IMG/VR virus record: IMGVR_UViG_3300028603_000018
Coordinates: 1 to 64,000 of that record
DNA length: 64,000 bases
From: a virus
Taxonomy: Duplodnaviria; Caudoviricetes
Direction: 5' to 3' (one strand)
The first letter of the stretch is position 1; every line of letters starts with the position of its first letter. Position numbers and translations under genes: made by a program. Shown here in pieces: positions 1-42,694 of the stretch. The notes under the pieces were generated by a model. It searched no databases and was not told the origin of the DNA. It worked only from the letters and a program-made list of their open reading frames with translations.

Positions 1-902
1 AAGGTATCCAAGGTGAAGAAGGACCAGAGGGTCCAGAAGGCGCTGAAGGTATTCAAGGTCCCATTGGTCCTAAAGGCGATCCTGCTGCGGTATTTGCTTA
101 TAAAGGTGAAGTAAATAGCATTGTTGACTTACCTGCTGTTGGTGCTCCTGGTGATGCTTACACTGTTGTTGGTAATACACATCTGTATCTCTGGGATGAG
201 ACCTTAGAGGCATTCATTGAAGGTCCTGAAGTAGGAGCTATTCAAGGTCCTAAAGGTGATCAAGGTGAACAAGGTCCTCGTGGTCAACAAGGCTTACGTG
301 GTGAGAAGGGTGAGACTGGTGCTTCTATCATCTTCTTAAATGAAAATCCTGGTCCTCTTAATGGTCGTCCTGGTGACATGGCCATTAACAATAACACCAA
401 AGAGTATTTCCGTAAAAATAACGAGACGACTTGGATCTCGTTAGGTTATATGGAAGGTGGTACTGTTCATGAAGTACCTGAAGTCGGTCTTTTCATCCGT
501 AATCAAGGTGGTTGGACTAAAGTCCTGGAAGGTGGTGATTTAACTGGCTTAGCTGACGGTGGTCAATATGTCCTAACCAAAAATGGATTTGCTCGCTTCG
601 ATGGTTATGATACTGCTATTGTAGCACTGACTGGAACAACAATTGATCCTACTCTTCCTGCATGTAACTTCACTTATCAAGTAACAGGTAATACGACCTT
701 AACAGTAGCTAACTTCGTTGCTGATCGTTCTAAGGTTATTATTCTGCGTCTGTTAGGTAATGCTGGTACAGTAGTTATTAATAACGTACAATGGGGTGAG
801 AATGGTCCTCCAGAGATTGGAACTGACTTTACTGTCATTGCTTTATTCTGGGATGGCGTTCGTTGGTACGGTAGCTTAGGTCCAGCAGGCGCATTAGACT
901 AA
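1..902 (+). CDS. Tail fibre protein with collagen-like Gly-X-Y repeats, C-terminal part (5' end outside window)
   Basis: Frame is open from base 3 (GIQGEEGPEGPEGAEGIQGPIGPKGD...GPKGDQGEQGPRGQQGLRGEKGETG) and continues into the 378..902 ORF, so the Met at 378 is internal. Confidence 0.85.
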   Translation, partial: GIQGEEGPEGPEGAEGIQGPIGPKGDPAAVFAYKGEVNSIVDLPAVGAPGDAYTVVGNTHLYLWDETLEAFIEGPEVGAIQGPKGDQGEQGPRGQQGLRGEKGETGASIIFLNENPGPLNGRPGDMAINNNTKEYFRKNNETTWISLGYMEGGTVHEVPEVGLFIRNQGGWTKVLEGGDLTGLADGGQYVLTKNGFARFDGYDTAIVALTGTTIDPTLPACNFTYQVTGNTTLTVANFVADRSKVIILRLLGNAGTVVINNVQWGENGPPEIGTDFTVIALFWDGVRWYGSLGPAGALD

Positions 903-3792: not shown

Positions 3793-3830
3793 TAAAACTG
3801 TAGTAAACAACAAAAGGATTAACTAAACTA

Positions 3831-4802
3831 ATGTCTAATTCAGATAACCTCGACGATATCTTAGCTCAAGAAGATCATGTTAATGATGAACTCATCTCTT
3901 TATATGCAGAGAACAAAAGTATTTATGACATTACCTCTGAGTTAATTAAACGATTAGAGAACAAAGAATACTTTAACAGTCTAGATGCTGTGTTAGAGTT
4001 AAGCTTGTTACCTACAGTTATTCCTAATGACTTTATTCGTGTTGATCCAGATCAAGAGTTCGTAGAGAAAGGATTACCTAAATTAACTGAGATCAATGAT
4101 GAGACTAAGCCTAAGCTCTGGCATTTCTTCTTTACTGTTACAGTAGAGTTAATGGCTCAGCAAAAAGGTTCTTCTATCTTAATTGAAGAAGAGATTGAAT
4201 TTCCTTTTACTTTAGAAGAGTTTATTGTTGTTGCTGATCAATGGATTCATTCTCGCGTAGCTAAGATTCTCATTCTCAATACCGATGAAGGTTCTAGCTC
4301 CTCAGTCGTTGATAAAATCTCTACAGATACACTAGCAGATATTGAGAAGAAGTTTGAAGAAACTAAAGGCGAGTTAGAGAATGAATACTCTGAAGAAGAT
4401 TTGGAATTCTTTAATACGACAATTAAAGATAACCTAGCTAGTGACTTAGAGTTGTTAAAAGAGCGGTTTATTAATCTTCCAGTTTCTACTCAATTAGTCT
4501 CTGGTCCTCCAACTTGTTTAGAACTCATTGAGTTTTATCCTATCTGCTTAGCCTATGTGTATGTTAATGATAGCTTACGGACTAATTTAGATTTATCTCT
4601 ATTAGTACGTATTATTCATGCATCAAAGAAAGCTTCATTAACGCTTCTTTCTGATTTCTCTGAATTCACTACTCCAGCTAATGAAGATAGTCTCTTAGGC
4701 TATATTAGTCTGATAGATGGTGTTAACTGGTACACAGATGGAAATGAGTTATTTAACGTATTACGAAGCTCTGGAGAGAGCGATGAGTCATTTGACAGCT
4801 GA
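3831..4802 (+). CDS. Acidic hypothetical protein
   Basis: 323-aa ORF with RBS. Confidence 0.75.
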   Translation: MSNSDNLDDILAQEDHVNDELISLYAENKSIYDITSELIKRLENKEYFNSLDAVLELSLLPTVIPNDFIRVDPDQEFVEKGLPKLTEINDETKPKLWHFFFTVTVELMAQQKGSSILIEEEIEFPFTLEEFIVVADQWIHSRVAKILILNTDEGSSSSVVDKISTDTLADIEKKFEETKGELENEYSEEDLEFFNTTIKDNLASDLELLKERFINLPVSTQLVSGPPTCLELIEFYPICLAYVYVNDSLRTNLDLSLLVRIIHASKKASLTLLSDFSEFTTPANEDSLLGYISLIDGVNWYTDGNELFNVLRSSGESDESFDS

Positions 4803-5657: not shown

Positions 5658-8600
5658 GTGATTGAAAAAATTATTAAGCGTGATGGACGAGAAGAAAAGT
5701 TCGATGCTGAGAAAATTGTAAGGTGGGCTGAATGGGCCTCCCCAATGGAATCTATGAAACGACAGTGGCCTGTTGTAGTAACAAAGGTGGCCTCTCGTTT
5801 AGATCGTATTGTAACGAGTAAGAAGCTCCAGGAAGAGTTAATTGAAGGGTTCTTAGATCTAGATAACTATAGTGCTTATTTAGTCGCTGGACGCCTGTAT
5901 TCAGCTCACCTACGTAAAGAGATTTTTGGTAGTAATGAAGTACCTACTATTAAAGAAGTGCAAACTCGATTAATTCAAGATGGATTATTACGTGATCTTG
6001 GTTATAGTGATCAAGAGTACCAAATGCTTGAAGAGATTATTGATCATGAACGAGACTTTGATGTATTGCATTTCTCTTTACACCATATTCGACTCAAGTA
6101 CGCATTACGTAATAAAGTAAGTAAAAAAGAGTATGAAACTCAGCAGTTTGTTTACATGCGTATGGCAATGACTGTTAATGAGTTTAAAGAACCTATTGAG
6201 AGGATTGCTTTAGTTAAGAGCCTCTATGATAAGCTCTCTCAAAAGAAACTCTCTTTACCTACACCTAACTATGTAAACTTTGGCACTTACTTACGTAGCT
6301 ATGCTTCTTGCAACCTCTATATGACTGACGACAATTTAGAGAGTTTAGCTATTGGTGATCATATTGCTTATCGTCAAACAGCAGCTAGTGCAGGTAATGG
6401 TTTTAACATCATGACTCGTTCAGCCGATGATCCTATTCGTAATGGATTATTCCCTCATCAAGGAAAACTCCCTTACTATGCTGCTGTAGGTAAAGCTATT
6501 AAAGCTAACTTACAAAATGGTCGAGGTGGTGCAGGTAATGCTTTCTTCCCAGCATTTGATCCTGAAGCTAATAAGATCTTAGGCTTACGTGATCCGCGCT
6601 CTACTGGTGTGGCAAGTAATAGAGATCTCCATTACACTTTTATGGATAATCCTTTCTTTGCTAAGAAAGTGGCAGCTGGAGAGAAAGTCTTTGTATGGAA
6701 CTGCTATACTGCTCCTAAGCTCAATGAGTTATTCTATTCTGATGACCTAAAAGGTTTTATTGAAGAATATAATCGTTTAGAAAATGATCCTAGTTTCCAT
6801 AAAGAATATATTGATACTCGTGAACTCTTCTATAGGTTGAAAGACGCAGAGTTTGGTAGTGGTACGTATTATGAAATGGACGCTTATGAAGTCAATCGCC
6901 ATACTCCATTAAAAGAACCTATTCATAGTAGTAATTTGTGCGTAGCACCAGAAACGCAATTACTGACTGATCAAGGTCATGTTACAATCCGTGATAAAGC
7001 TGGTCAGACAGTTACTATCTGGAACGGTAAAGAATGGTCTGAAGTAGAAGTCGTTAAGACAGGTGAGAACCAGAAGTTACTACGCGTTGTATTATCTGAC
7101 GGTAAAGATTTAACATGCACCCCGTATCACAAGTGGTACGTGATGGATAGTTACCAAGGTAAAGAGCGCGAGGTCCGTACTCATGAGCTTGAAGAAGGAA
7201 TGAAGCTTATTAAGCTAGAGACTCCTGTCATTGAAGGTGACTGGGAATTTAAAAGAGCTTATGTTAATGGCTTCTATACAGGTGACGGAACTCAACTTTA
7301 TAATGGTACAGGAAAAATTTACTTATATGGTGAAAAGGCGGCACTTGCTCCTCTGTTTAATCATGATAAGGAATGGCGTAAAAACGGAAACAGATTAGAA
7401 TCCGAGTTCCGTGATCTGTATCCTAAATATACTGTACCGACAGTGAAGTATACTGTAGCTAGTCGTTTAGAATGGCTCGCGGGATGGCTAGATGCAGATG
7501 GCTGCATCTATCGAAATGGAGACAATGAGTCGATTACTGCTTCTTCTACAGATAAAGAATTTCTTAAAGAAGTACAGTTAATGCTTCAAACTCTAGGCAT
7601 TGAATCTAAAGTAACGCTTCTGTATGAAGCTGGAATAAAAAGACTTCCCGCTAATGATGGAACTGGAATCTATAAGGATTTCTATTGCTTAGCCACTTAT
7701 CGACTTCTTATTTCTAGTTGGAATAGTCAGAAGCTATTAGAGCTAGGATTAAAATTACATCGACTAGTGATAGAAAAACGCAAAGTTCAGCGTAGTGCTT
7801 CAGGATTCGTTTATGTGAAGAATGTATTAGATGTTGGTCGAGTAGATGATACTTACTGCGTAAAAGAACCTAAGCGTAATAGAGCAGTCTTCAATGGTAT
7901 TCTTACAGGTCAATGCGTAGAAATCACTGAGCACACAGCTCCTTACTATGACATGAAGGATCTTTATTCTGAAGAAGATCATGGTAGAGGTGAGATTGCG
8001 TTATGTAATCTTGGTGCTGTTAACCTATCTAAGATTGAATCAGATAAAGATTACTTCAACATCATGTATGAAGCTTTGAAAGTTATTGATTATACAATCG
8101 ATCATGCTGATTACACCTTCCCTCACTTAAGCTTTACTTCTAAGCAACGTCGATATGCTGCTGTTGGTATTATGGACTTTGCTCATGTCATGGCTGAATC
8201 CCACTACTCTTATTCAACAGAAGAGGGCAGGCAGTTCATGCACGAAGTAGCGGAACGTCATATGTACTTTGCTATTAAAGCCTCTCTTGCTATTAGTAAA
8301 GAACGTGGTGTAGCTCCTTGGATTCATAAGACTAAATGGGTAGACGGCTGGACACCTGTCAAAACGTATAACCGAGGTCTTGATAGTATCCAAGACTTTA
8401 AATACCGGTATGACTGGGAAGCTCTATCTGAAGAGATTAAAGCAAATGGTGGTATTGCTCATAGTCTGTTAGTTGCTTATATGCCTGGGGAAGCTTCTAG
8501 TAAAGCAGTAGGTGCTGCTAACTCTATTTATCCTGTTAGACAGTTAACGCTAGTTAAAACAGATAATAAGATCACAACTCGCTGGGCTGCACCTAATGGT

Positions 8601-8903
8601 GATAATGAGTTCTATAAATACGAATCTGCTTGGGACATCCCTACGAAAGATCTGATTATCATGTATGCTATCTTCCAGAAGTTTACTGATCAGTCTATTA
8701 GTGCAGATAGGTATAAGCGTGTCCCTGAAGGTAGTACGATTAATACCGATGAATTAATTGAAGAATATCTCCTGGCTAAGAAGTTAGGTGTTAAAACCTT
8801 CTATTACCAAAACTCTAACACAGCAAGTAATGTCGATATTAATGTGGTCGAGCGTATTACTGATGCTGTTGATGAAGAGGTTTGTGAAGGTTGTACAATG
8901 TGA
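5658..8903 (+). CDS. nrdA: Class Ia ribonucleotide reductase alpha subunit, intein-containing
   Basis: N-terminal ATP cone (IIKRDGREEKFD), LPTP, ASC, SSNL|C-V-E active site split by an intein, KTFYY, C-terminal CEGC. Confidence 0.96.
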   Translation: MIEKIIKRDGREEKFDAEKIVRWAEWASPMESMKRQWPVVVTKVASRLDRIVTSKKLQEELIEGFLDLDNYSAYLVAGRLYSAHLRKEIFGSNEVPTIKEVQTRLIQDGLLRDLGYSDQEYQMLEEIIDHERDFDVLHFSLHHIRLKYALRNKVSKKEYETQQFVYMRMAMTVNEFKEPIERIALVKSLYDKLSQKKLSLPTPNYVNFGTYLRSYASCNLYMTDDNLESLAIGDHIAYRQTAASAGNGFNIMTRSADDPIRNGLFPHQGKLPYYAAVGKAIKANLQNGRGGAGNAFFPAFDPEANKILGLRDPRSTGVASNRDLHYTFMDNPFFAKKVAAGEKVFVWNCYTAPKLNELFYSDDLKGFIEEYNRLENDPSFHKEYIDTRELFYRLKDAEFGSGTYYEMDAYEVNRHTPLKEPIHSSNLCVAPETQLLTDQGHVTIRDKAGQTVTIWNGKEWSEVEVVKTGENQKLLRVVLSDGKDLTCTPYHKWYVMDSYQGKEREVRTHELEEGMKLIKLETPVIEGDWEFKRAYVNGFYTGDGTQLYNGTGKIYLYGEKAALAPLFNHDKEWRKNGNRLESEFRDLYPKYTVPTVKYTVASRLEWLAGWLDADGCIYRNGDNESITASSTDKEFLKEVQLMLQTLGIESKVTLLYEAGIKRLPANDGTGIYKDFYCLATYRLLISSWNSQKLLELGLKLHRLVIEKRKVQRSASGFVYVKNVLDVGRVDDTYCVKEPKRNRAVFNGILTGQCVEITEHTAPYYDMKDLYSEEDHGRGEIALCNLGAVNLSKIESDKDYFNIMYEALKVIDYTIDHADYTFPHLSFTSKQRRYAAVGIMDFAHVMAESHYSYSTEEGRQFMHEVAERHMYFAIKASLAISKERGVAPWIHKTKWVDGWTPVKTYNRGLDSIQDFKYRYDWEALSEEIKANGGIAHSLLVAYMPGEASSKAVGAANSIYPVRQLTLVKTDNKITTRWAAPNGDNEFYKYESAWDIPTKDLIIMYAIFQKFTDQSISADRYKRVPEGSTINTDELIEEYLLAKKLGVKTFYYQNSNTASNVDINVVERITDAVDEEVCEGCTM
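6939..7913 (+). mobile_element. Intein (325 aa) with LAGLIDADG homing endonuclease, ending in Gln
   Basis: Starts CVAPETQLLT; block B CTPYHKW; endonuclease motifs NGFYTGDG and LAGWLDADG; ends DTYCVKEP...FNGILTGQ before the catalytic Cys. Confidence 0.93.
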
Positions 8904-14640: not shown

Positions 14641-15078
14641 ATGTCTGACGTGTTCTTGAAACTGGCTAACCTCGAAAAGCAAGACGACCTCTCTCATCAT
14701 ACTAGTTCTTTCAACCTCCTCGGCGATGAGCTGAAAGAAGCTCTCAATGAAGCAAAAGCTGAACAGCGTAAAGCTGTCATGCGTGAAGCTGTCAATGAGA
14801 TCATCAAACTCGACCAGAAGTATGAGGCTTGTGTTAAGGCTAACGTTGAGAATATTCGAGCAGCACGTAAAGCAGAAGCACAGAGCCAAGTTCGTCTTAA
14901 AGAATTGAATCGGGCTAAGCAATACGCTATGGAAACTCAAAACTTCCTGCCTCTGGCTTTCCTGCTCGGTGTGCTTGGTAGTAATTACTCCATTGATGCT
15001 GTAACCATTCCTGAAGATTGGAAGTCTGTTGCTGAAACGCCGAAAAAGAAAGCGGTGGTTCGTAAGACTGCTAAGTAA
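14641..15078 (+). CDS. Coiled-coil protein, probably highly expressed
   Basis: Promoter-like motif near 14575, AAAGGA RBS, A/E/K/R-rich helix, biased codons (CTG, CGT, GCT). Confidence 0.85.
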   Translation: MSDVFLKLANLEKQDDLSHHTSSFNLLGDELKEALNEAKAEQRKAVMREAVNEIIKLDQKYEACVKANVENIRAARKAEAQSQVRLKELNRAKQYAMETQNFLPLAFLLGVLGSNYSIDAVTIPEDWKSVAETPKKKAVVRKTAK

Positions 15079-15447
15079 GGCTAGGTACAATCCCGTGTAA
15101 GCCGGGATCAGGGAGGCATCTACCTCCCTGCTACGCTCAACTTACTATTAGAGCTTCGTTATTATGAATCTATATAATGCAAGATTCTTACTAATAATCG
15201 ATAAGACTCTACACTATTATAAAGGCTAATCACCTTTTGATTTATTCAATAACGATTAATGATGTTATAATGCGTTTATCGCTAAAGACGTCATGGTTTA
15301 GCTTCTTACTGATATTGTTGTGGTAGTGATGTATGGCATACGCTCTTATTATACACGTGAGCATCAGCCTATACACCCTTACATACAGCTGAAGTTTAAG
15401 AATTTGCTTTAATAGCAACTCTACTTTTAATTCATTCTAGGCTAAAC
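15079..15447 (+). ncRNA. Candidate structured non-coding RNA or long 3' UTR
   Basis: No ORF of 60 aa or more in the track; hairpins 15090-15108 and 15109-15130; repeated TATAATGC and TTCTTACT; closed by palindromic element 15448-15486. Confidence 0.5.
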
Positions 15448-25550: not shown

Positions 25551-26693
25551 ATGTCCTATATTAGCTTTCTAGAAAATGAAGTTAAGTTATCAGGAAAAGA
25601 CTTTAGTAGGAGTCTACCTTACACTAAACAGATCTTAGCTATTATTAGTGATGAAGGTCATAGTGGTGGTAGTATGGGTGTATTCTCCAGTATGTTTAAA
25701 CACTGGATGAAAGACCCTAAAGAACTAGAGAATAATGAACTCTTCTCCCCTATCTGGGAAGTCGTTAAAGACATTCCTCTAGATATCAGAAATGAAGTCC
25801 TTTGGTCAGTTAACCGTAGTATGACCTTCACTGCCTTCACGCCTTTAACAGGTGAAGACGATGAATGGATCTATCATAACTACGATCATGAGTGTCTTGC
25901 TCAGAATAAAAGATGCGGCAGTATCTTTAAACGAAAAGATGATACTGCTTACAATATTGATGGTCTTATCCATTATACTCCTACTCCTACCTATAGTGAC
26001 TTTATAGGCTTTACGGGTTCCTATAGTCGTAAAGAAATTACCTTCCCTTATGACTCCTCACAAGAATCTGAACGGAAGTATTTCAAAGATGATGACTATA
26101 AGTTCCCTATCATAGAAAGCGATCCTTCTATCTGGTTAAAGAAAGCTAGGGAGCAATTCTTATCAGGTAGAGATCCTATTACTGGTGAGTATAACCAAGC
26201 TGCTCTTTTTACAGTAGAAAAAGATGAATTAGTTTCTACTTTTTATACCGTCTATAAAACACTAAAGGAACTAAACAAGGGTGTTGAAGAAAAAGAACAA
26301 ATCATTGATGACTTCATTAGTGATCTTCACTACTTATACCCTCAAGATAATCAGTATAGACTTATCTTAGATGGTAAGGAACTAATGAGAGCAGTTAGTT
26401 ATTCTACTGTTCGTAATATCATTAGACTTATCTCTAGTGCTAAAGAGCGTATTCTTAATGGAGGGGATATTTTACTCTTTGTCTATAATGTAAGAAAGGC
26501 TAACAAACATTACCAGAACTATCTTGATACGTCTTTTTATTATGTATCTACAGAGAACCTAACTGAACTAGATTCAGTTGTTTACTTTAGTACTTCACGC
26601 AATAATATCCATACCACAAGTAAAGAAGCTCATAAGGCACTATATAACGTTTGTAAAGAGCTAGGTCTTGAATATAAAGGACTAAAGAAATAA
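25551..26693 (+). CDS. Phage protein of unknown function
   Basis: 380 aa; GHSGGS, PLTGEDDEW, QNKRC, ITFPY motifs recalled from other phage proteins. Confidence 0.8.
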   Translation: MSYISFLENEVKLSGKDFSRSLPYTKQILAIISDEGHSGGSMGVFSSMFKHWMKDPKELENNELFSPIWEVVKDIPLDIRNEVLWSVNRSMTFTAFTPLTGEDDEWIYHNYDHECLAQNKRCGSIFKRKDDTAYNIDGLIHYTPTPTYSDFIGFTGSYSRKEITFPYDSSQESERKYFKDDDYKFPIIESDPSIWLKKAREQFLSGRDPITGEYNQAALFTVEKDELVSTFYTVYKTLKELNKGVEEKEQIIDDFISDLHYLYPQDNQYRLILDGKELMRAVSYSTVRNIIRLISSAKERILNGGDILLFVYNVRKANKHYQNYLDTSFYYVSTENLTELDSVVYFSTSRNNIHTTSKEAHKALYNVCKELGLEYKGLKK

Positions 26694-39055: not shown

Positions 39056-39425
39056 ACAATTCACACAAGAAGAACAACTTCTATTAAAGAGAAAGACAGA
39101 AGTCCTTGACTTTCTCACTAAGTACTTTAATCTACTACCTGTAATGAATGGTAAGTATACAACTACTATTTCTGATGTAGTAAGGATTGTGAAGCCAGTA
39201 TTTATTGATTTAGTTAATGGTAGTCCTAAAGAAGAGTTTTCCTTAACCCTTCATAAAGACAGTAATCTACTTTCTTTTCTAGTAGTTGTAATGGATACAA
39301 TTAAAGAGCGTTTTTCTTTTCTATCGATTAAAGAAGAGAGAATAGATAAAACTGATGCTGTTGTTGAGATTTCATACACAGTTTCTTTTACTGATGAGGT
39401 AGAAGATGACTCAATTAAAGAGTAA
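39045..39425 (+). CDS. Hypothetical protein
   Basis: 126 aa, in operon. Confidence 0.65.
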   Translation: METKQFTQEEQLLLKRKTEVLDFLTKYFNLLPVMNGKYTTTISDVVRIVKPVFIDLVNGSPKEEFSLTLHKDSNLLSFLVVVMDTIKERFSFLSIKEERIDKTDAVVEISYTVSFTDEVEDDSIKE

Positions 39426-40122
39426 ACATAAAGTCGTTTATTGTTACACAGAACATGCTTTTATTAGTGACAACTATACTCTTATTAAAGCAGTTATTGA
39501 TAATGAAGTTTTGTGTAAAGTATTGAAAGATAGTTTGGGATTTGATGAAGGTTTTGTTAATGCCATTAAAGGGATGAAAGATGTAAAAATTCGTTCTTTA
39601 GATGACTATACTAAGAACAGGGAGTTAAATAGAGTATATACTCATATTTGTCATTGCATCCCAAGACATCATCCCGAATTTGTTAAAGTGGTAGAAGGAC
39701 TCAAAAATTCTTCATTCACTGTAAAAGAAATTGAAGGCAATCAATACACTATCGCCAACCTAATAAATAATTATGAATTTGTCATAGAGCAAAGCGATCT
39801 CATTACTATCATTCCTGAAGGTAATGAAGCTCCTTATGAGCGTCGAGTAGTATGTGCTGCTAATAAGTCTACTAATACAGATAAGATGGTAACTAGTGCT
39901 CGTCATCACGACATTAATATGAACGAGATGATTAAACTCATTCATGAGTTAGAAACGTTGAAAAACGAACCTGTCTCTGACTTTAAATTACAGGGATTTG
40001 TTGATCAGCATAATGTCTTTATGACTAGAGAAGAAGCTAAGGCTCTTGCTGTAGGGAATCAACAGATTCGTCGTAAAGTAGGTGGTGATGAAGAAAGACT
40101 CTATAGTGAGAACCTTTACTAA
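39406..40122 (+). CDS. Two-domain phage protein of unknown function
   Basis: GAGGT RBS; C-terminal VVCAAN..SARHHD..QGFVDQ..FMTREEA..LYSENLY. Confidence 0.75.
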   Translation: MTQLKSKHKVVYCYTEHAFISDNYTLIKAVIDNEVLCKVLKDSLGFDEGFVNAIKGMKDVKIRSLDDYTKNRELNRVYTHICHCIPRHHPEFVKVVEGLKNSSFTVKEIEGNQYTIANLINNYEFVIEQSDLITIIPEGNEAPYERRVVCAANKSTNTDKMVTSARHHDINMNEMIKLIHELETLKNEPVSDFKLQGFVDQHNVFMTREEAKALAVGNQQIRRKVGGDEERLYSENLY

Positions 40123-42145: not shown

Positions 42146-42282
42146 AAATAATAAAAAATACACTACTTCTATAGTTTGCAGGAGTAGTGTGTTCTAGACT
42201 AAATTAAGTATACATCATTTATTAGTAGCAGATAGAGAAAGATCTTAATCTTCTAATTTTTGTAGTTGTTAGGTAAAAAAAT

Positions 42283-42371
42283 CCGACATGTCCCTTGCCC
42301 CGGTCTTCTAAACCGGTAGCGTAATAAAAGCAGGGAGGAGCTGACTGGATCGTTTCCAGCATGTCGGTCCA
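42283..42371 (+). tRNA. Atypical tRNA-Arg(TCT)-like RNA lacking a D-arm
   Basis: Acceptor CCGACATG/CATGTCGG plus T-CCA; anticodon arm CCGGT-CTTCTAA-ACCGG; T-arm CTGG-ATCGTTT-CCAG. Confidence 0.65.
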
Positions 42372-42436
42372 TTATTTATTCCTATTGTAAAACTTCTATA
42401 GCTTGGAATAATAGGAATAAATAATGTACGTCTTAA

Positions 42437-42515
42437 GGGTCTTTAGTTTAATTGGAAAAAACACCCGGCTCATAACCGGTGAGAGTCTCGGTTCGAATCG
42501 CGAGAAGACCCACCA
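42437..42515 (+). tRNA. tRNA with CAT anticodon (Ile2 or Met)
   Basis: GGGTCTT/AAGACCC acceptor, D-arm GTTT/AAAC, loop CTCATAA, GGTTCGAATC, encoded ACCA. Confidence 0.9.
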
Positions 42516-42694
42516 TGAATTGTAAGGTAGCAAAAGAGGTATTTAGTAAAGATCTCGCTCAATTCGGGTTGAGTGCTTTAGTTGGCTTTGCTGATGATAA
42601 TCTTCTGTATGCCTCCTTACTTTCTTTTTTATAATCTTAAAAACAAATAGATCTTATAGTTAAATATCAGATCATTTTATTTTAAAGGCAAGTA

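What the first reader, a model, noticed from the sequence alone, without database searches (positions are those of the whole stretch)
42283..42371. D-armless tRNA-Arg(UCU)-like RNA with 8/4 fold and a replacement helix
Seen: 8-bp acceptor, 4-bp T stem, encoded CCA and a perfect anticodon arm, but only 9 nt (TCCCTTGCC) where the D-arm should be. These nucleotides can pair with GCAGGGA in a long variable region. Intact pairing argues against decay. Established: 8/4 allo-tRNAs exist, and AGA is a rare codon in many proteobacteria but common in this window. Inference: a non-canonical AGA decoder, or a decoy for anticodon nucleases.
Basis: partly seen in the sequence, partly recalled or inferred. 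Interest (0 to 1): 0.7.

Follow-up and report, generated by a model that had tools for sequence, protein, structure and literature searches.

The report
Rewired, pseudoknotted phage arginine tRNA
A giant phiKZ-like phage carries an 89-base gene that is very probably an arginine tRNA for the codon AGA, but with no D-arm: the missing half of that arm sits after the anticodon arm and pairs back through a pseudoknot, a shape shared by hundreds of unannotated phage genes and which I found in no paper.

Summary
Window 42283-42371 (+) has an 8-bp acceptor stem, a 4-bp T stem, a perfect UCU anticodon arm, an encoded CCA and no D-arm.

ARAGORN and the Rfam tRNA model miss it. Its only Rfam hit is tRNA-Sec, below threshold.

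It is not an orphan. blastn and pattern scans found homologues in 346 GenBank phage records, mostly Vibrio and Acinetobacter phages. They also turned up 15 distinct viral contigs and 54 metagenome contigs, but only 3 of 185,579 prokaryote species genomes. None of the 60 listed GenBank rows shows a tRNA feature under the match.

Across 47 distinct sequences, 99.8% of positions in five helices are paired, and every helix covaries. Two helices are non-canonical. In addition, AGC after the anticodon arm pairs with GCU before the T arm, which makes a pseudoknot.

In Acinetobacter phages the gene sits exactly where sister phages carry a canonical tRNA-Arg(UCU). In Aeromonas phage AhSzw-1 two such genes are the only AGA/AGG decoders found in its tRNA-gene region (34 canonical tRNAs in the 35 kb examined).

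Best reading: a working AGA decoder. Expression and charging are untested.

This scan had already noted the same family on other DNA.

The parts
42283..42290 (+). Acceptor stem, 5' strand (8 nt, CCGACATG)
   Evidence: Pairs 8/8 with 42360-42367. All 8 family pairs show changes on both sides, and 99.7% of cells are paired.
42291..42293 (+). Linker UCC between the acceptor stem and the D-like helix. It is one nucleotide longer than in most members. Inferred to stand in for U8/N9.
   Evidence: Alignments A1/A4: the family has U (39 of 47) followed by any base. C42293 could also pair with G42335.
42294..42298 (+). D-like helix, 5' strand (CUUGC)
   Evidence: Pairs with 42330-42334. On the family alignment, pair 14:50 is CG 27, AU 8, GC 7, GU 3, UA 2, and pair 15:49 is AU 33, GC 11, UA 2.
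42300..42316 (+). Anticodon arm: stem CCGGU/ACCGG, loop CUUCUAA, anticodon UCU at 42307-42309
   Evidence: All 5 stem pairs covary. The loop is CUUCUAA in 43 of 47 members. The other four read CUCCUAA, UUCCUAA (both anticodon CCU) and CUUCUAC twice.
42318..42320 (+). Pseudoknot (variable-arm-like) helix, 5' strand (AGC)
   Evidence: Pairs with 42340-42342. The family shows AGC/GCU, ACC/GGU, ACG/CGU, ACU/AGU, AGU/ACU and AGCAU/AUGCU; 100% of cells are paired.
42321..42329 (+). A-rich loop GUAAUAAAA. The last four A are invariant or nearly so in the family.
   Evidence: Column counts: columns 44-46 are A in 47/47 and column 47 in 46/47.
42330..42334 (+). D-like helix, 3' strand (GCAGG), lying inside the loop of the pseudoknot helix
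42335..42339 (+). GAGGA. GG-A is invariant or nearly so in the family. Inferred equivalent of D-loop G18, G19 and the ArgRS determinant A20.
   Evidence: Columns 57-59 read G 47/47, G 46/47, A 46/47. The canonical sister gene has the D-loop AGCAGGAUA. The equivalence itself is inference.
42340..42344 (+). Pseudoknot helix 3' strand (GCU), followed by an invariant GA
42345..42359 (+). T arm: 4-bp stem CUGG/CCAG and loop AUCGUUU. Positions 54 and 58 are swapped (A...U) relative to the family's UUCGAUU.
   Evidence: Column 69 is A in 1/47 and column 73 is U in 1/47, both in this sequence only.
42360..42371 (+). Acceptor stem 3' strand CAUGUCGG, discriminator U, encoded CCA
   Evidence: Family discriminators are G 24, A 13, U 10.
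42437..42515 (+). Canonical-type tRNA-Met(CAU), the only other tRNA gene on the 244-kb contig. It lies on the same strand, 65 nt downstream.
   Evidence: ARAGORN; Rfam RF00005 at 50.8 bits.
42370..42426 (+). Perfect AU-rich hairpin filling the spacer between the two tRNA genes. Its role is unknown; a processing site is my guess.
   Evidence: Fold of -21.7 kcal/mol, z = -6.6.
42517..42632 (+). Long structured stretch ending in a U-run after tRNA-Met. Likely end of the two-gene transcription unit (inferred).
   Evidence: Fold of -33.1 kcal/mol, z = -3.1, followed by UUUCUUUUUU.

Best explanation
The element is a phage gene for an arginine tRNA that reads AGA, with a core wired differently from the cloverleaf.

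**Shown**
- It folds into five helices that are conserved and covary across a large phage family.
- These are an 8-bp acceptor stem, a 4-bp T stem (12 stacked pairs in all, as in a normal 7/5 tRNA), a normal anticodon arm, and two non-canonical helices.
- A 5-bp D-like helix joins the strand right after the acceptor stem to a strand lying after the anticodon arm.
- A 3-bp helix crosses the D-like helix and makes a pseudoknot.

**Inferred**
- The D-like helix stacks on the anticodon stem as a D stem does.
- The invariant GG-A that follows the D-like helix's 3' strand plays the part of D-loop G18, G19 and A20. GG would dock on U55/C56 of the T loop to form the elbow. The A would serve as the main bacterial ArgRS determinant, alongside C35 and U36.
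- The transcript is made together with the tRNA-Met 65 nt downstream and is trimmed by RNase P and 3' nucleases to the encoded CCA.
- It is charged by the host ArgRS and carried by EF-Tu.
- It supplies AGA decoding. AGA is about ten times more frequent in this 36% GC phage than in the co-assembled 65% GC bacterium.

Why phages keep the rewired form in place of the canonical one is unknown.
For: **Family and structure**
- blastn found unannotated homologues in Salmonella phage Arash and Aeromonas phage AhSzw-1. A second blastn found 346 phage records.
- Pattern scans gave 15 distinct family-bearing viral contigs, 54 metagenome contigs and 3 prokaryote genome contigs.
- Model R1 scores the window element 88.9 bits. 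The other members score 64-110 bits, and canonical tRNAs score 26 bits or less.
- On 47 distinct sequences, 99.8% of cells are paired, against 76% in shuffles and 36-50% with slid partners. 245 cells are changed on both sides, against 60 in shuffles.
- The two non-canonical helices alone, on a structure-blind MAFFT alignment, are 99.7% paired, against 27-41% with slid partners.

**Context pointing to decoding**
- In Acinetobacter phage AM101 the gene starts 14 nt after tRNA-Thr. Sister phages Konradin and AbTZA1 carry a canonical tRNA-Arg(UCU) at that same point, with an identical anticodon arm.
- In the 35 kb of AhSzw-1 scanned there are 34 canonical tRNAs, including Arg(ACG), but no canonical UCU or CCU tRNA. 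Its two rewired genes carry exactly CCU and UCU.
- Every member's anticodon is UCU or CCU, in a canonical loop.
- C35, U36 and a G/A/U discriminator match the bacterial Arg identity set listed in PMC9976931.

**This phage**
- The element is the only Arg-tRNA-like gene on the 244-kb contig.
- AGA is 14.2 versus 1.4 per 1000 codons.
- AGA codons align with Arg in host homologues about as often as CGN codons do: 10/20 versus 15/26.
- All 25 family pairs are standard pairs in this copy.
- Its unique A54/U58 looks like a compensated swap of the T54:A58 pair.
Against: - There are no expression, processing, aminoacylation or ribosome data for any member.
- The three-dimensional equivalences (GG-A as G18/G19/A20, L-shape) are inference; no RNA 3D modelling was available.
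- A canonical D-loop, the site of the strongest E. coli ArgRS determinant, is absent.
- The window copy is the most divergent in the set in its T arm and in its 9-nt linker region. No close relative of it was found, so its own conservation over time is not shown.
- The host is assigned only by co-assembly.
- The codon with the largest phage/host excess is UUA, not AGA, so codon supply alone does not explain why this tRNA is carried.
- An earlier check within this scan of the same claim on other DNA reported that part of it fell. I could not see which part.
Confidence: 0.68

Rival explanations
1. A non-decoding tRNA mimic. The RNA is made and folds as shown, but it acts as a decoy or sponge and does not deliver arginine to the ribosome. 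Possible targets would be a host nuclease that cuts tRNA-Arg anticodon loops, ArgRS, or a tRNA-modifying enzyme.
For: - The anticodon loop is kept exactly canonical while the body is altered. A bait for an anticodon-loop nuclease would look like this.
- The D-loop that ArgRS normally reads is missing (PMC9976931).
- Phage tRNA clusters are known from the literature to interact with tRNA-targeting defences (my own knowledge, not tested here).
Against: - It replaces the canonical tRNA-Arg(UCU) in AM101 and does not sit alongside it.
- It provides the only AGA/AGG anticodons in the AhSzw-1 tRNA set examined, which covers all 20 amino acids.
- The family also keeps features a decoy would not need: the 12-bp acceptor/T stack, CCA, an Arg-type discriminator, and the U34/C34 variation that tracks AGA/AGG.
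Confidence: 0.17
2. A decaying tRNA pseudogene or a chance fold. On this reading a former tRNA-Arg lost its D-arm and the remaining pairings are accidental.
For: - ARAGORN in every mode and Rfam RF00005 find nothing.
- The single-sequence fold is only z = -2.2.
- This copy has an unusual T loop and no close relatives were found.
Against: - All 25 family base pairs are intact in this copy.
- The model scores it 88.9 bits.
- The architecture, with covariation in both odd helices, recurs in T5-like (Demerecviridae), T4-like (Straboviridae) and other phages.
- The two T-loop changes occur together, as a swap.
Confidence: 0.03
3. A recoding or mis-charging tRNA of the allo-tRNA kind. On this reading the 8/4 body and the variable-arm-like helix attract SerRS or another synthetase, so AGA is read as something other than Arg.
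For: - The 8/4 geometry is shared with allo-tRNAs, some of which carry AGA/AGG anticodons (PMC5389517).
- The element gives a weak Rfam tRNA-Sec match of 24.1 bits.
Against: - AGA codons of this phage align with Arg in homologues about as often as CGN codons do. The sample is small.
- The variable-arm-like helix is only 3 bp and is tied into the pseudoknot, unlike the long free arm that SerRS reads.
- The gene replaces a canonical tRNA-Arg in sister phages.
Confidence: 0.04
4. A DNA-level variant selected mainly because it resists a homing endonuclease that targets canonical tRNA-Arg genes. RNA function would be secondary.
For: - Seg-like and HNH homing endonuclease genes lie in or next to these tRNA clusters: AM101 orf142, orf137 and orf138, and the gene after tRNA-Arg in AbTZA1.
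- An earlier scan note reports an HNH gene right after a family member.
Against: - Covariation that preserves base pairing in five helices, in unrelated phage lineages, points to selection on the RNA fold.
- No endonuclease gene was recognised beside the window copy. Among its neighbours only a Kelch-repeat protein matched a Pfam or PHROGs family; the others matched nothing at the thresholds used.
Confidence: 0.05

Closest known systems
Canonical bacterial and phage tRNA-Arg(UCU) (Rfam RF00005), for example the gene 14 nt after tRNA-Thr in Acinetobacter phages Konradin and AbTZA1
   Same: - Anticodon loop CUUCUAA.
- In AM101, an anticodon arm identical to the sister phages' canonical gene, at the same genomic slot.
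- A T loop with U55-C56-G57.
- Encoded CCA and an Arg-type discriminator.
- A 12-bp acceptor/T stack.
   Different: - No D hairpin.
- 8/4 in place of 7/5.
- The partner strand of the D-like helix and the GG-A motif lie after the anticodon arm.
- An extra 3-bp helix makes a pseudoknot.
- RF00005 and ARAGORN do not detect it.
(8/4) allo-tRNAs and (8/4) phage tRNA-Ser/His (Mukai et al., NAR 2017, PMC5389517)
   Same: - An 8-bp acceptor stem and a 4-bp T stem.
- Some occur in phages.
- Found because they resemble tRNA-Sec.
- Some allo-tRNAs carry AGA/AGG anticodons.
   Different: - As described in the paper, those are cloverleaves with a D-arm and a long free variable arm.
- The paper contains neither 'pseudoknot' nor 'UCU'.
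- Here the D-arm is absent and the variable-arm-like helix is knotted to the D-like helix.
Bacterial tRNA-Sec (Rfam RF01852)
   Same: - Long acceptor stem and long region after the anticodon arm.
- It is the best Rfam match for every member tested.
- The window's anticodon arm matches 16 of 17 bases of the co-assembled bacterium's tRNA-Sec arm.
   Different: - Scores of 24-32 bits against a threshold of 47.
- Anticodon UCU, not UCA.
- No 6-bp D stem.
- 8/4, not 8/5.
- The arm similarity is not a family trait, because the anticodon stems of the family vary and covary.
D-armless mitochondrial tRNA-Ser(AGY/N) of animals
   Same: A decoding tRNA without a D hairpin (PMC4013460 abstract).
   Different: - Those are shortened RNAs with a simple replacement loop, working in a co-evolved organellar system.
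- This one is longer than normal (89 nt), rebuilds a D-like helix from a distant strand, and must use bacterial enzymes.
- ARAGORN's mitochondrial modes do not find it.
tRNA-like domain of tmRNA, and pseudoknotted tRNA-like structures of plant viruses (my own knowledge)
   Same: tRNA mimics that are charged although the D stem is missing (tmRNA) or a pseudoknot is present (plant-virus structures).
   Different: - tmRNA has no anticodon arm and relies on G3.U70 and SmpB.
- The plant-virus pseudoknot lies in the acceptor arm.
- Here base pair 3:70 is G-C, and a complete anticodon arm is kept.

Membership tests
Rewired (pseudoknotted, D-armless) phage tRNA-Arg family. Unpublished as far as I could find; defined here by model R1 and alignments A1/A4. 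| 8-bp acceptor stem, 4-bp T stem and encoded CCA | tested here: met
   8/8 and 4/4 standard pairs in the window copy.
Rewired (pseudoknotted, D-armless) phage tRNA-Arg family | 5-bp helix between the strand after the acceptor stem and a strand after the anticodon arm | tested here: met
   CUUGC/GCAGG at 42294-42298 and 42330-42334. This is the same register as the family and adds new pair types U-A and U.G.
Rewired (pseudoknotted, D-armless) phage tRNA-Arg family | 3-bp crossing helix, A-N-N with N-N-U, flanked by an invariant U before it and GA after it | tested here: met
   AGC at 42318-42320 with GCU at 42340-42342, U at 42317, GA at 42343-42344.
Rewired (pseudoknotted, D-armless) phage tRNA-Arg family | Conserved single-stranded motifs: AAAA before the helix's 3' strand, and GGA after it | tested here: met
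   AAAA at 42326-42329 and GGA at 42337-42339.
Rewired (pseudoknotted, D-armless) phage tRNA-Arg family | Arg anticodon UCU or CCU in a canonical loop | tested here: met
   CUUCUAA at 42305-42311.
Rewired (pseudoknotted, D-armless) phage tRNA-Arg family | Whole-model score far above that of canonical tRNAs | tested here: met
   88.9 bits, against 26 bits or less for canonical tRNAs. The window sequence was one of the 11 seeds, so its score is partly by construction. Non-seed members score 64-110 bits.
Canonical tRNA (Rfam RF00005) | Cloverleaf with a D hairpin and a 7/5 acceptor/T stack, scoring at or above 29 bits | tested here: not met
   No RF00005 match even at E up to 10. ARAGORN found nothing in bacterial, intron, relaxed-threshold (-ps) and mitochondrial modes.
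Functional arginine tRNA (works like one) | Bacterial ArgRS determinants C35, U/G36, A/G/U73 and A20 | tested here: inconclusive
   C35, U36 and U73 are present (identity set from PMC9976931). A20 cannot be assigned. The near-invariant A after GG at 42339 is a candidate by inference only.
Functional arginine tRNA (works like one) | Expressed, processed, arginylated and used on the ribosome | not testable with these tools
   No transcript or charging data are available.
tRNA-Sec (Rfam RF01852) | Score of 47 bits or more, UCA anticodon, 6-bp D stem | tested here: not met
   24.1 bits, UCU anticodon, no D stem.
(8/4) allo-tRNA (Mukai et al. 2017) | 8/4 acceptor/T geometry | tested here: met
(8/4) allo-tRNA (Mukai et al. 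2017) | Cloverleaf with a D-arm and a long free variable arm (serine-type body) | tested here: not met
   No D hairpin. The 3-bp variable-arm-like helix encloses the partner strand of the D-like helix.

The most novel reading that the evidence does not exclude
These genes encode working, arginine-charged elongator tRNAs that reach the L-shape through a permuted, pseudoknotted core. That would make them a natural non-cloverleaf tRNA class outside organelles. On this reading, phages keep the rewired body because it escapes something that recognises the canonical tRNA-Arg body, such as a host tRNA-targeting defence, the phage's own tRNA-depleting nuclease, or a homing endonuclease acting on the gene.
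Probability: 0.2. Interest if true: 0.9.

Novelty: new variant of a known kind. Interest (0 to 1): 0.72.

Why it matters
Apart from shortened mitochondrial tRNAs, the tRNAs described in the reviews I checked are cloverleaves. tRNA finders, Rfam and the synthetase identity rules I checked assume this.

If these RNAs are charged and decode, several things follow:
- Bacterial ArgRS, EF-Tu, RNase P and the ribosome accept a tRNA whose D-arm is assembled from distant strands through a pseudoknot.
- Phage tRNA counts and codon-supply analyses are biased. The 60 listed GenBank rows, out of 346 matching records, show no tRNA feature under the match.
- A compact new scaffold becomes available for orthogonal tRNA engineering.

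Cultured carriers on laboratory hosts make the question directly testable. They include Salmonella phage Arash, Acinetobacter phage AM101 and Aeromonas phage AhSzw-1.

For this window, the finding adds a divergent member in a phiKZ-like jumbo phage. It has a compensated change in the T loop and shows that the gene moves between very different phage groups.

Tried and rejected
- **Standard detectors.** ARAGORN found nothing in standard, intron, relaxed-threshold (-ps) and mitochondrial modes.
- **Exact pattern scans.** The anticodon arm plus TAG gave no hit. The T-arm 15-mer gave at least 118 hits, all chance, with no acceptor pairing around them.
- **Related loci through flanking proteins.** The 117-aa neighbour has no viral-contig relatives and only two entries in the protein collection, one of them the window's own. 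The Kelch protein gave one unrelated locus.
- **Descent from the co-assembled bacterium's tRNA-Sec.** The anticodon arm matches it at 16 of 17 bases. I rejected this because family anticodon stems vary and covary. In AM101 the arm equals that of the sister phages' canonical tRNA-Arg.
- **The nested minimum-energy fold.** It pairs UGC with GCG, and the family does not support that pairing.
- **A shared promoter motif AGATCTTA** upstream of the element and of the Kelch gene. It is not clearly enriched: 14 found against 8.3 expected. The sigma-70 scan was at background.
- **Close relatives of this copy.**
  - A scan for its own T-loop variant gave one chance hit.
  - The five nearest cultured phiKZ-like phages have no member: FLC9, RP31, LucasX, SURPRISE13 and RTH11.
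  - None of the 51 genomes of the co-assembled bacterium's family has one.
- **Literature.** Eight full-text searches and two papers read for this point described no such tRNA. The library lacks most subscription journals.
- I replaced it with a reference-only comparison.
Full report
**Setting**

The window is the first 64 kb of a 244-kb, 36% GC contig (C90). That contig belongs to an assembly whose other contigs are mostly 63-67% GC. The window encodes:
- a PhiKZ-type major capsid protein (PF25620, E 2.5e-173);
- a divergent DnaB-like helicase;
- a protein matching the PHROG family phrog_2943, annotated 'polymerase';
- ribonucleotide reductase and ClpP.

It is therefore a phiKZ-like jumbo phage. 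Its nearest cultured relative, Burkholderia phage FLC9, shares only 45% capsid identity. Other low-GC contigs of the assembly carry their own NrdA and ClpP, so they belong to other phages. On C90 the only canonical tRNA gene is tRNA-Met(CAU) at 42437-42515.

**The observation**

- an 8-bp acceptor stem;
- nine bases where the D-arm should be;
- a perfect 5-bp anticodon stem with loop CUUCUAA;
- a 28-base region after it;
- a 4-bp T stem with a 7-base loop;
- a discriminator U and an encoded CCA.

ARAGORN fails in every mode. Rfam gives only a sub-threshold tRNA-Sec match of 24.1 bits against a threshold of 47, and no match to the general tRNA model. The single-sequence fold is only mildly better than shuffles (z = -2.2). 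Alone, then, the element could not be told apart from a decayed gene.

**Finding relatives**

Notes from earlier sessions of this scan described a family of D-armless, pseudoknotted phage tRNA-Arg genes on other DNA. I treated this as a lead and tested it from scratch.
- A sensitive blastn of the element against GenBank phages hit unannotated intergenic DNA in Salmonella phage Arash and Aeromonas phage AhSzw-1. The matches spanned the anticodon arm, the whole "variable" region and the T arm.
- Reading those loci showed the same architecture. AhSzw-1 has two tandem copies, with anticodons CCU and UCU. ARAGORN finds none of them.
- The Arash copy then matched 346 phage records: Vibrio 307, Acinetobacter 32, Aeromonas 3, Escherichia 2, Salmonella 1, other 1. 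In the 60 listed rows the site carries no tRNA annotation.
- Motif scans gave 15 distinct family-bearing viral contigs, 54 metagenome contigs, and only 3 contigs among 185,579 prokaryote species genomes.

The family is thus overwhelmingly viral. It is absent from all 51 other genomes of the co-assembled bacterium's family and from the five nearest cultured phiKZ-like phages. Its spread across T5-like (Demerecviridae), T4-like (Straboviridae), phiKZ-like and other phages points to horizontal movement.

**Structure**

A covariance model built from 11 members scores the window element 88.9 bits. Non-seed members score 64-110 bits and canonical tRNAs 26 bits or less.

On 47 distinct sequences I counted a five-helix structure that includes a pseudoknot:
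- 99.8% of 1175 cells are standard pairs, against 76% after shuffling and 36-50% with partners slid by 1-3 columns.
- 19 of 25 pairs change on both sides.
- 245 cells carry double changes, against 60 in shuffles.

The two non-canonical helices hold on their own on a structure-blind MAFFT alignment: 99.7% paired against 27-41% slid, and 57 double-changed cells against at most 8 slid.

- **Helix A** joins window positions 12-16 to 48-52. It reads CCCAC/GUGGG, CCCUC/GAGGG, CCGAC/GUCGG, CCCGC/GCGGG, CCAGC/GCUGG and CCUGC/GCAGG in different members, and CUUGC/GCAGG here.
- **Helix B** joins 36-38 to 58-60. It reads AGC/GCU, ACC/GGU, ACG/CGU, ACU/AGU, AGU/ACU or AGCAU/AUGCU.

The 3' strand of helix A lies inside the loop of helix B, so the two cross.

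**A structural reading (inference)**

The 5' strand of helix A runs straight into the anticodon stem through a single base. Helix A must therefore stack on the anticodon stem with this strand in the place of a normal D-stem 3' strand (positions 22-25, then 26).

Its partner strand is then followed by A-N-G-G-A. The GG and the A are invariant or nearly so (47/47, 46/47 and 46/47). This is the order A14-R15-G18-G19-A20 of a normal D-loop. The canonical sister gene has AGCAGGAUA there.

On this reading:
- the 5' half of the D-arm has been moved behind the anticodon arm;
- GG can still dock on U55/C56 of the T loop;
- the following A can serve as A20, the strongest determinant for bacterial ArgRS (PMC9976931).

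The window copy keeps U55-C56-G57 but has A at 54 and U at 58, where all 46 other sequences have U and A. This looks like a compensated swap of the 54:58 tertiary pair and argues that the T-loop fold is under selection in this copy too. None of this could be modelled in 3D here.

**Function**

Four lines of evidence favour a real AGA decoder.

1. **Same slot.** In Acinetobacter phage AM101 the gene begins 14 nt after tRNA-Thr. In the same genus, Konradin has a canonical tRNA-Arg(UCU) beginning 14 nt after the same tRNA-Thr, and so does AbTZA1 in a sister genus. The upstream flank is nearly identical (one base differs, at the position before the gene), and the anticodon arm AUCUGCCUUCUAAGCAG is identical.
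2. **Complementary set.** The 35 kb of AhSzw-1 scanned holds 34 canonical tRNAs covering all amino acids, including Arg(ACG). It has no canonical UCU or CCU tRNA, and the two rewired genes supply exactly those.
3. **Only Arg anticodons.** Members carry only UCU or CCU. They keep CCA, an Arg-compatible discriminator and a 12-bp acceptor/T stack, which Mukai et al. describe as the unit EF-Tu recognises (PMC5389517).
4. **Codon demand.** In this phage AGA makes up 30% of Arg codons (14.2 per 1000). In the co-assembled GC-rich genome it is 1.6% (1.4 per 1000). AGA codons align with Arg in homologues about as often as CGN codons do, 10/20 against 15/26, so AGA means arginine here.

The gene lies in a 550-bp gap between protein genes. 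A hairpin precedes it at 42157-42193. It is followed by a perfect AU-rich hairpin, the tRNA-Met gene, and then a long structure ending in a U-run. This fits a two-gene tRNA unit, although no promoter could be identified.

**What remains open**
- Nothing shows expression, processing or charging.
- The decoy reading is weakened by the replacement pattern but not excluded.
- Why the rewired form is kept is unknown. Escape from a nuclease or from a homing endonuclease is speculation; Seg and HNH genes do sit in these clusters.
- The host is inferred only from co-assembly.
- UUA, not AGA, shows the largest codon excess.
- The window copy has no close relatives in the collections I could search.
- An earlier internal check of the same claim on other DNA reported that part of it fell, without my being able to see which part.

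**Comparison and novelty**

The element works like a tRNA-Arg(UCU), but it fails the defining tests of the canonical tRNA model, of tRNA-Sec and of allo-tRNAs. The allo-tRNAs share only the 8/4 geometry. It differs from mitochondrial D-armless tRNAs by rebuilding a D-like helix instead of losing it.

Eight full-text searches found no description of such a tRNA. Neither did the 2017 allo-tRNA paper or the 2020 review of non-canonical tRNAs. The library lacks most subscription journals, so prior description cannot be excluded.

I rate it a new structural variant of a known kind of molecule. The same family had already been noted by this scan on other DNA. The present window adds a divergent member in a phiKZ-like jumbo phage.

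Noticed in passing
window 15073-15149 (+): Twister-sister ribozyme match above Rfam's threshold (43.2 bits against 34).
   Followed up: no
window 42437-42515 (+): The neighbouring tRNA-Met(CAU) is slightly irregular. The Rfam alignment shows an extra U in the 3' strand of the anticodon stem and an extra G in the T arm. CCA is encoded. I did not resolve whether it is an elongator Met or an Ile(CAU) tRNA; G1-C72 argues against an initiator.
   Followed up: partly
window 42370-42426 and 42157-42193 (+): A perfect AU-rich hairpin (z = -6.6) fills the spacer between the two tRNA genes. Its loop shares CTTCTATAG with the loop of the hairpin after the upstream gene. The 9-mer itself is not enriched in the window (3 found, 1.4 expected).
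   Followed up: partly
L202:3911-3989 (metagenome contig JACCDR011885110.1): Ten bases downstream of a rewired Arg gene (3815-3900) lies a second tRNA-like gene. It appears to have the same topology, CCCU paired with AGGG around a CAUC/GAUG anticodon stem, but with anticodon UAU (Ile, AUA). It scores 27.9 bits with model R1. This suggests the architecture is not limited to arginine.
   Followed up: no
L190 (AM101), L251 (Konradin), L252 (AbTZA1): The rewired and canonical tRNA-Arg(UCU) alleles share a nearly identical upstream flank (one base differs) and an identical anticodon arm, but nothing else. This hints at replacement by recombination within the gene. Seg-like homing endonuclease genes lie nearby.
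   Followed up: partly
G000 contigs C15, C38, C39, C66, C75, C87, C91: Other low-GC contigs of the assembly hold about 75 canonical tRNA genes in arrays. These include CUA (amber-reading) tRNAs on C38 and C66 and several genes with odd anticodon loops. C39 and C85 carry their own NrdA and ClpP, so they belong to other large phages.
   Followed up: partly
window 5658-8903 (+) and 25551-26693 (+): The ribonucleotide reductase large subunit carries a LAGLIDADG (intein-type) insert. A 380-aa protein begins with a Tad3 (Thoeris inhibitor) domain.
   Followed up: no
window 39406-40122 (+) and L189:8499-8801: A phrog_839 protein of unknown function has a 33% identical relative lying 58 nt upstream of a family member on a 170-kb viral contig. 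In the window it lies 2.2 kb upstream of the element. This may be coincidence.
   Followed up: no
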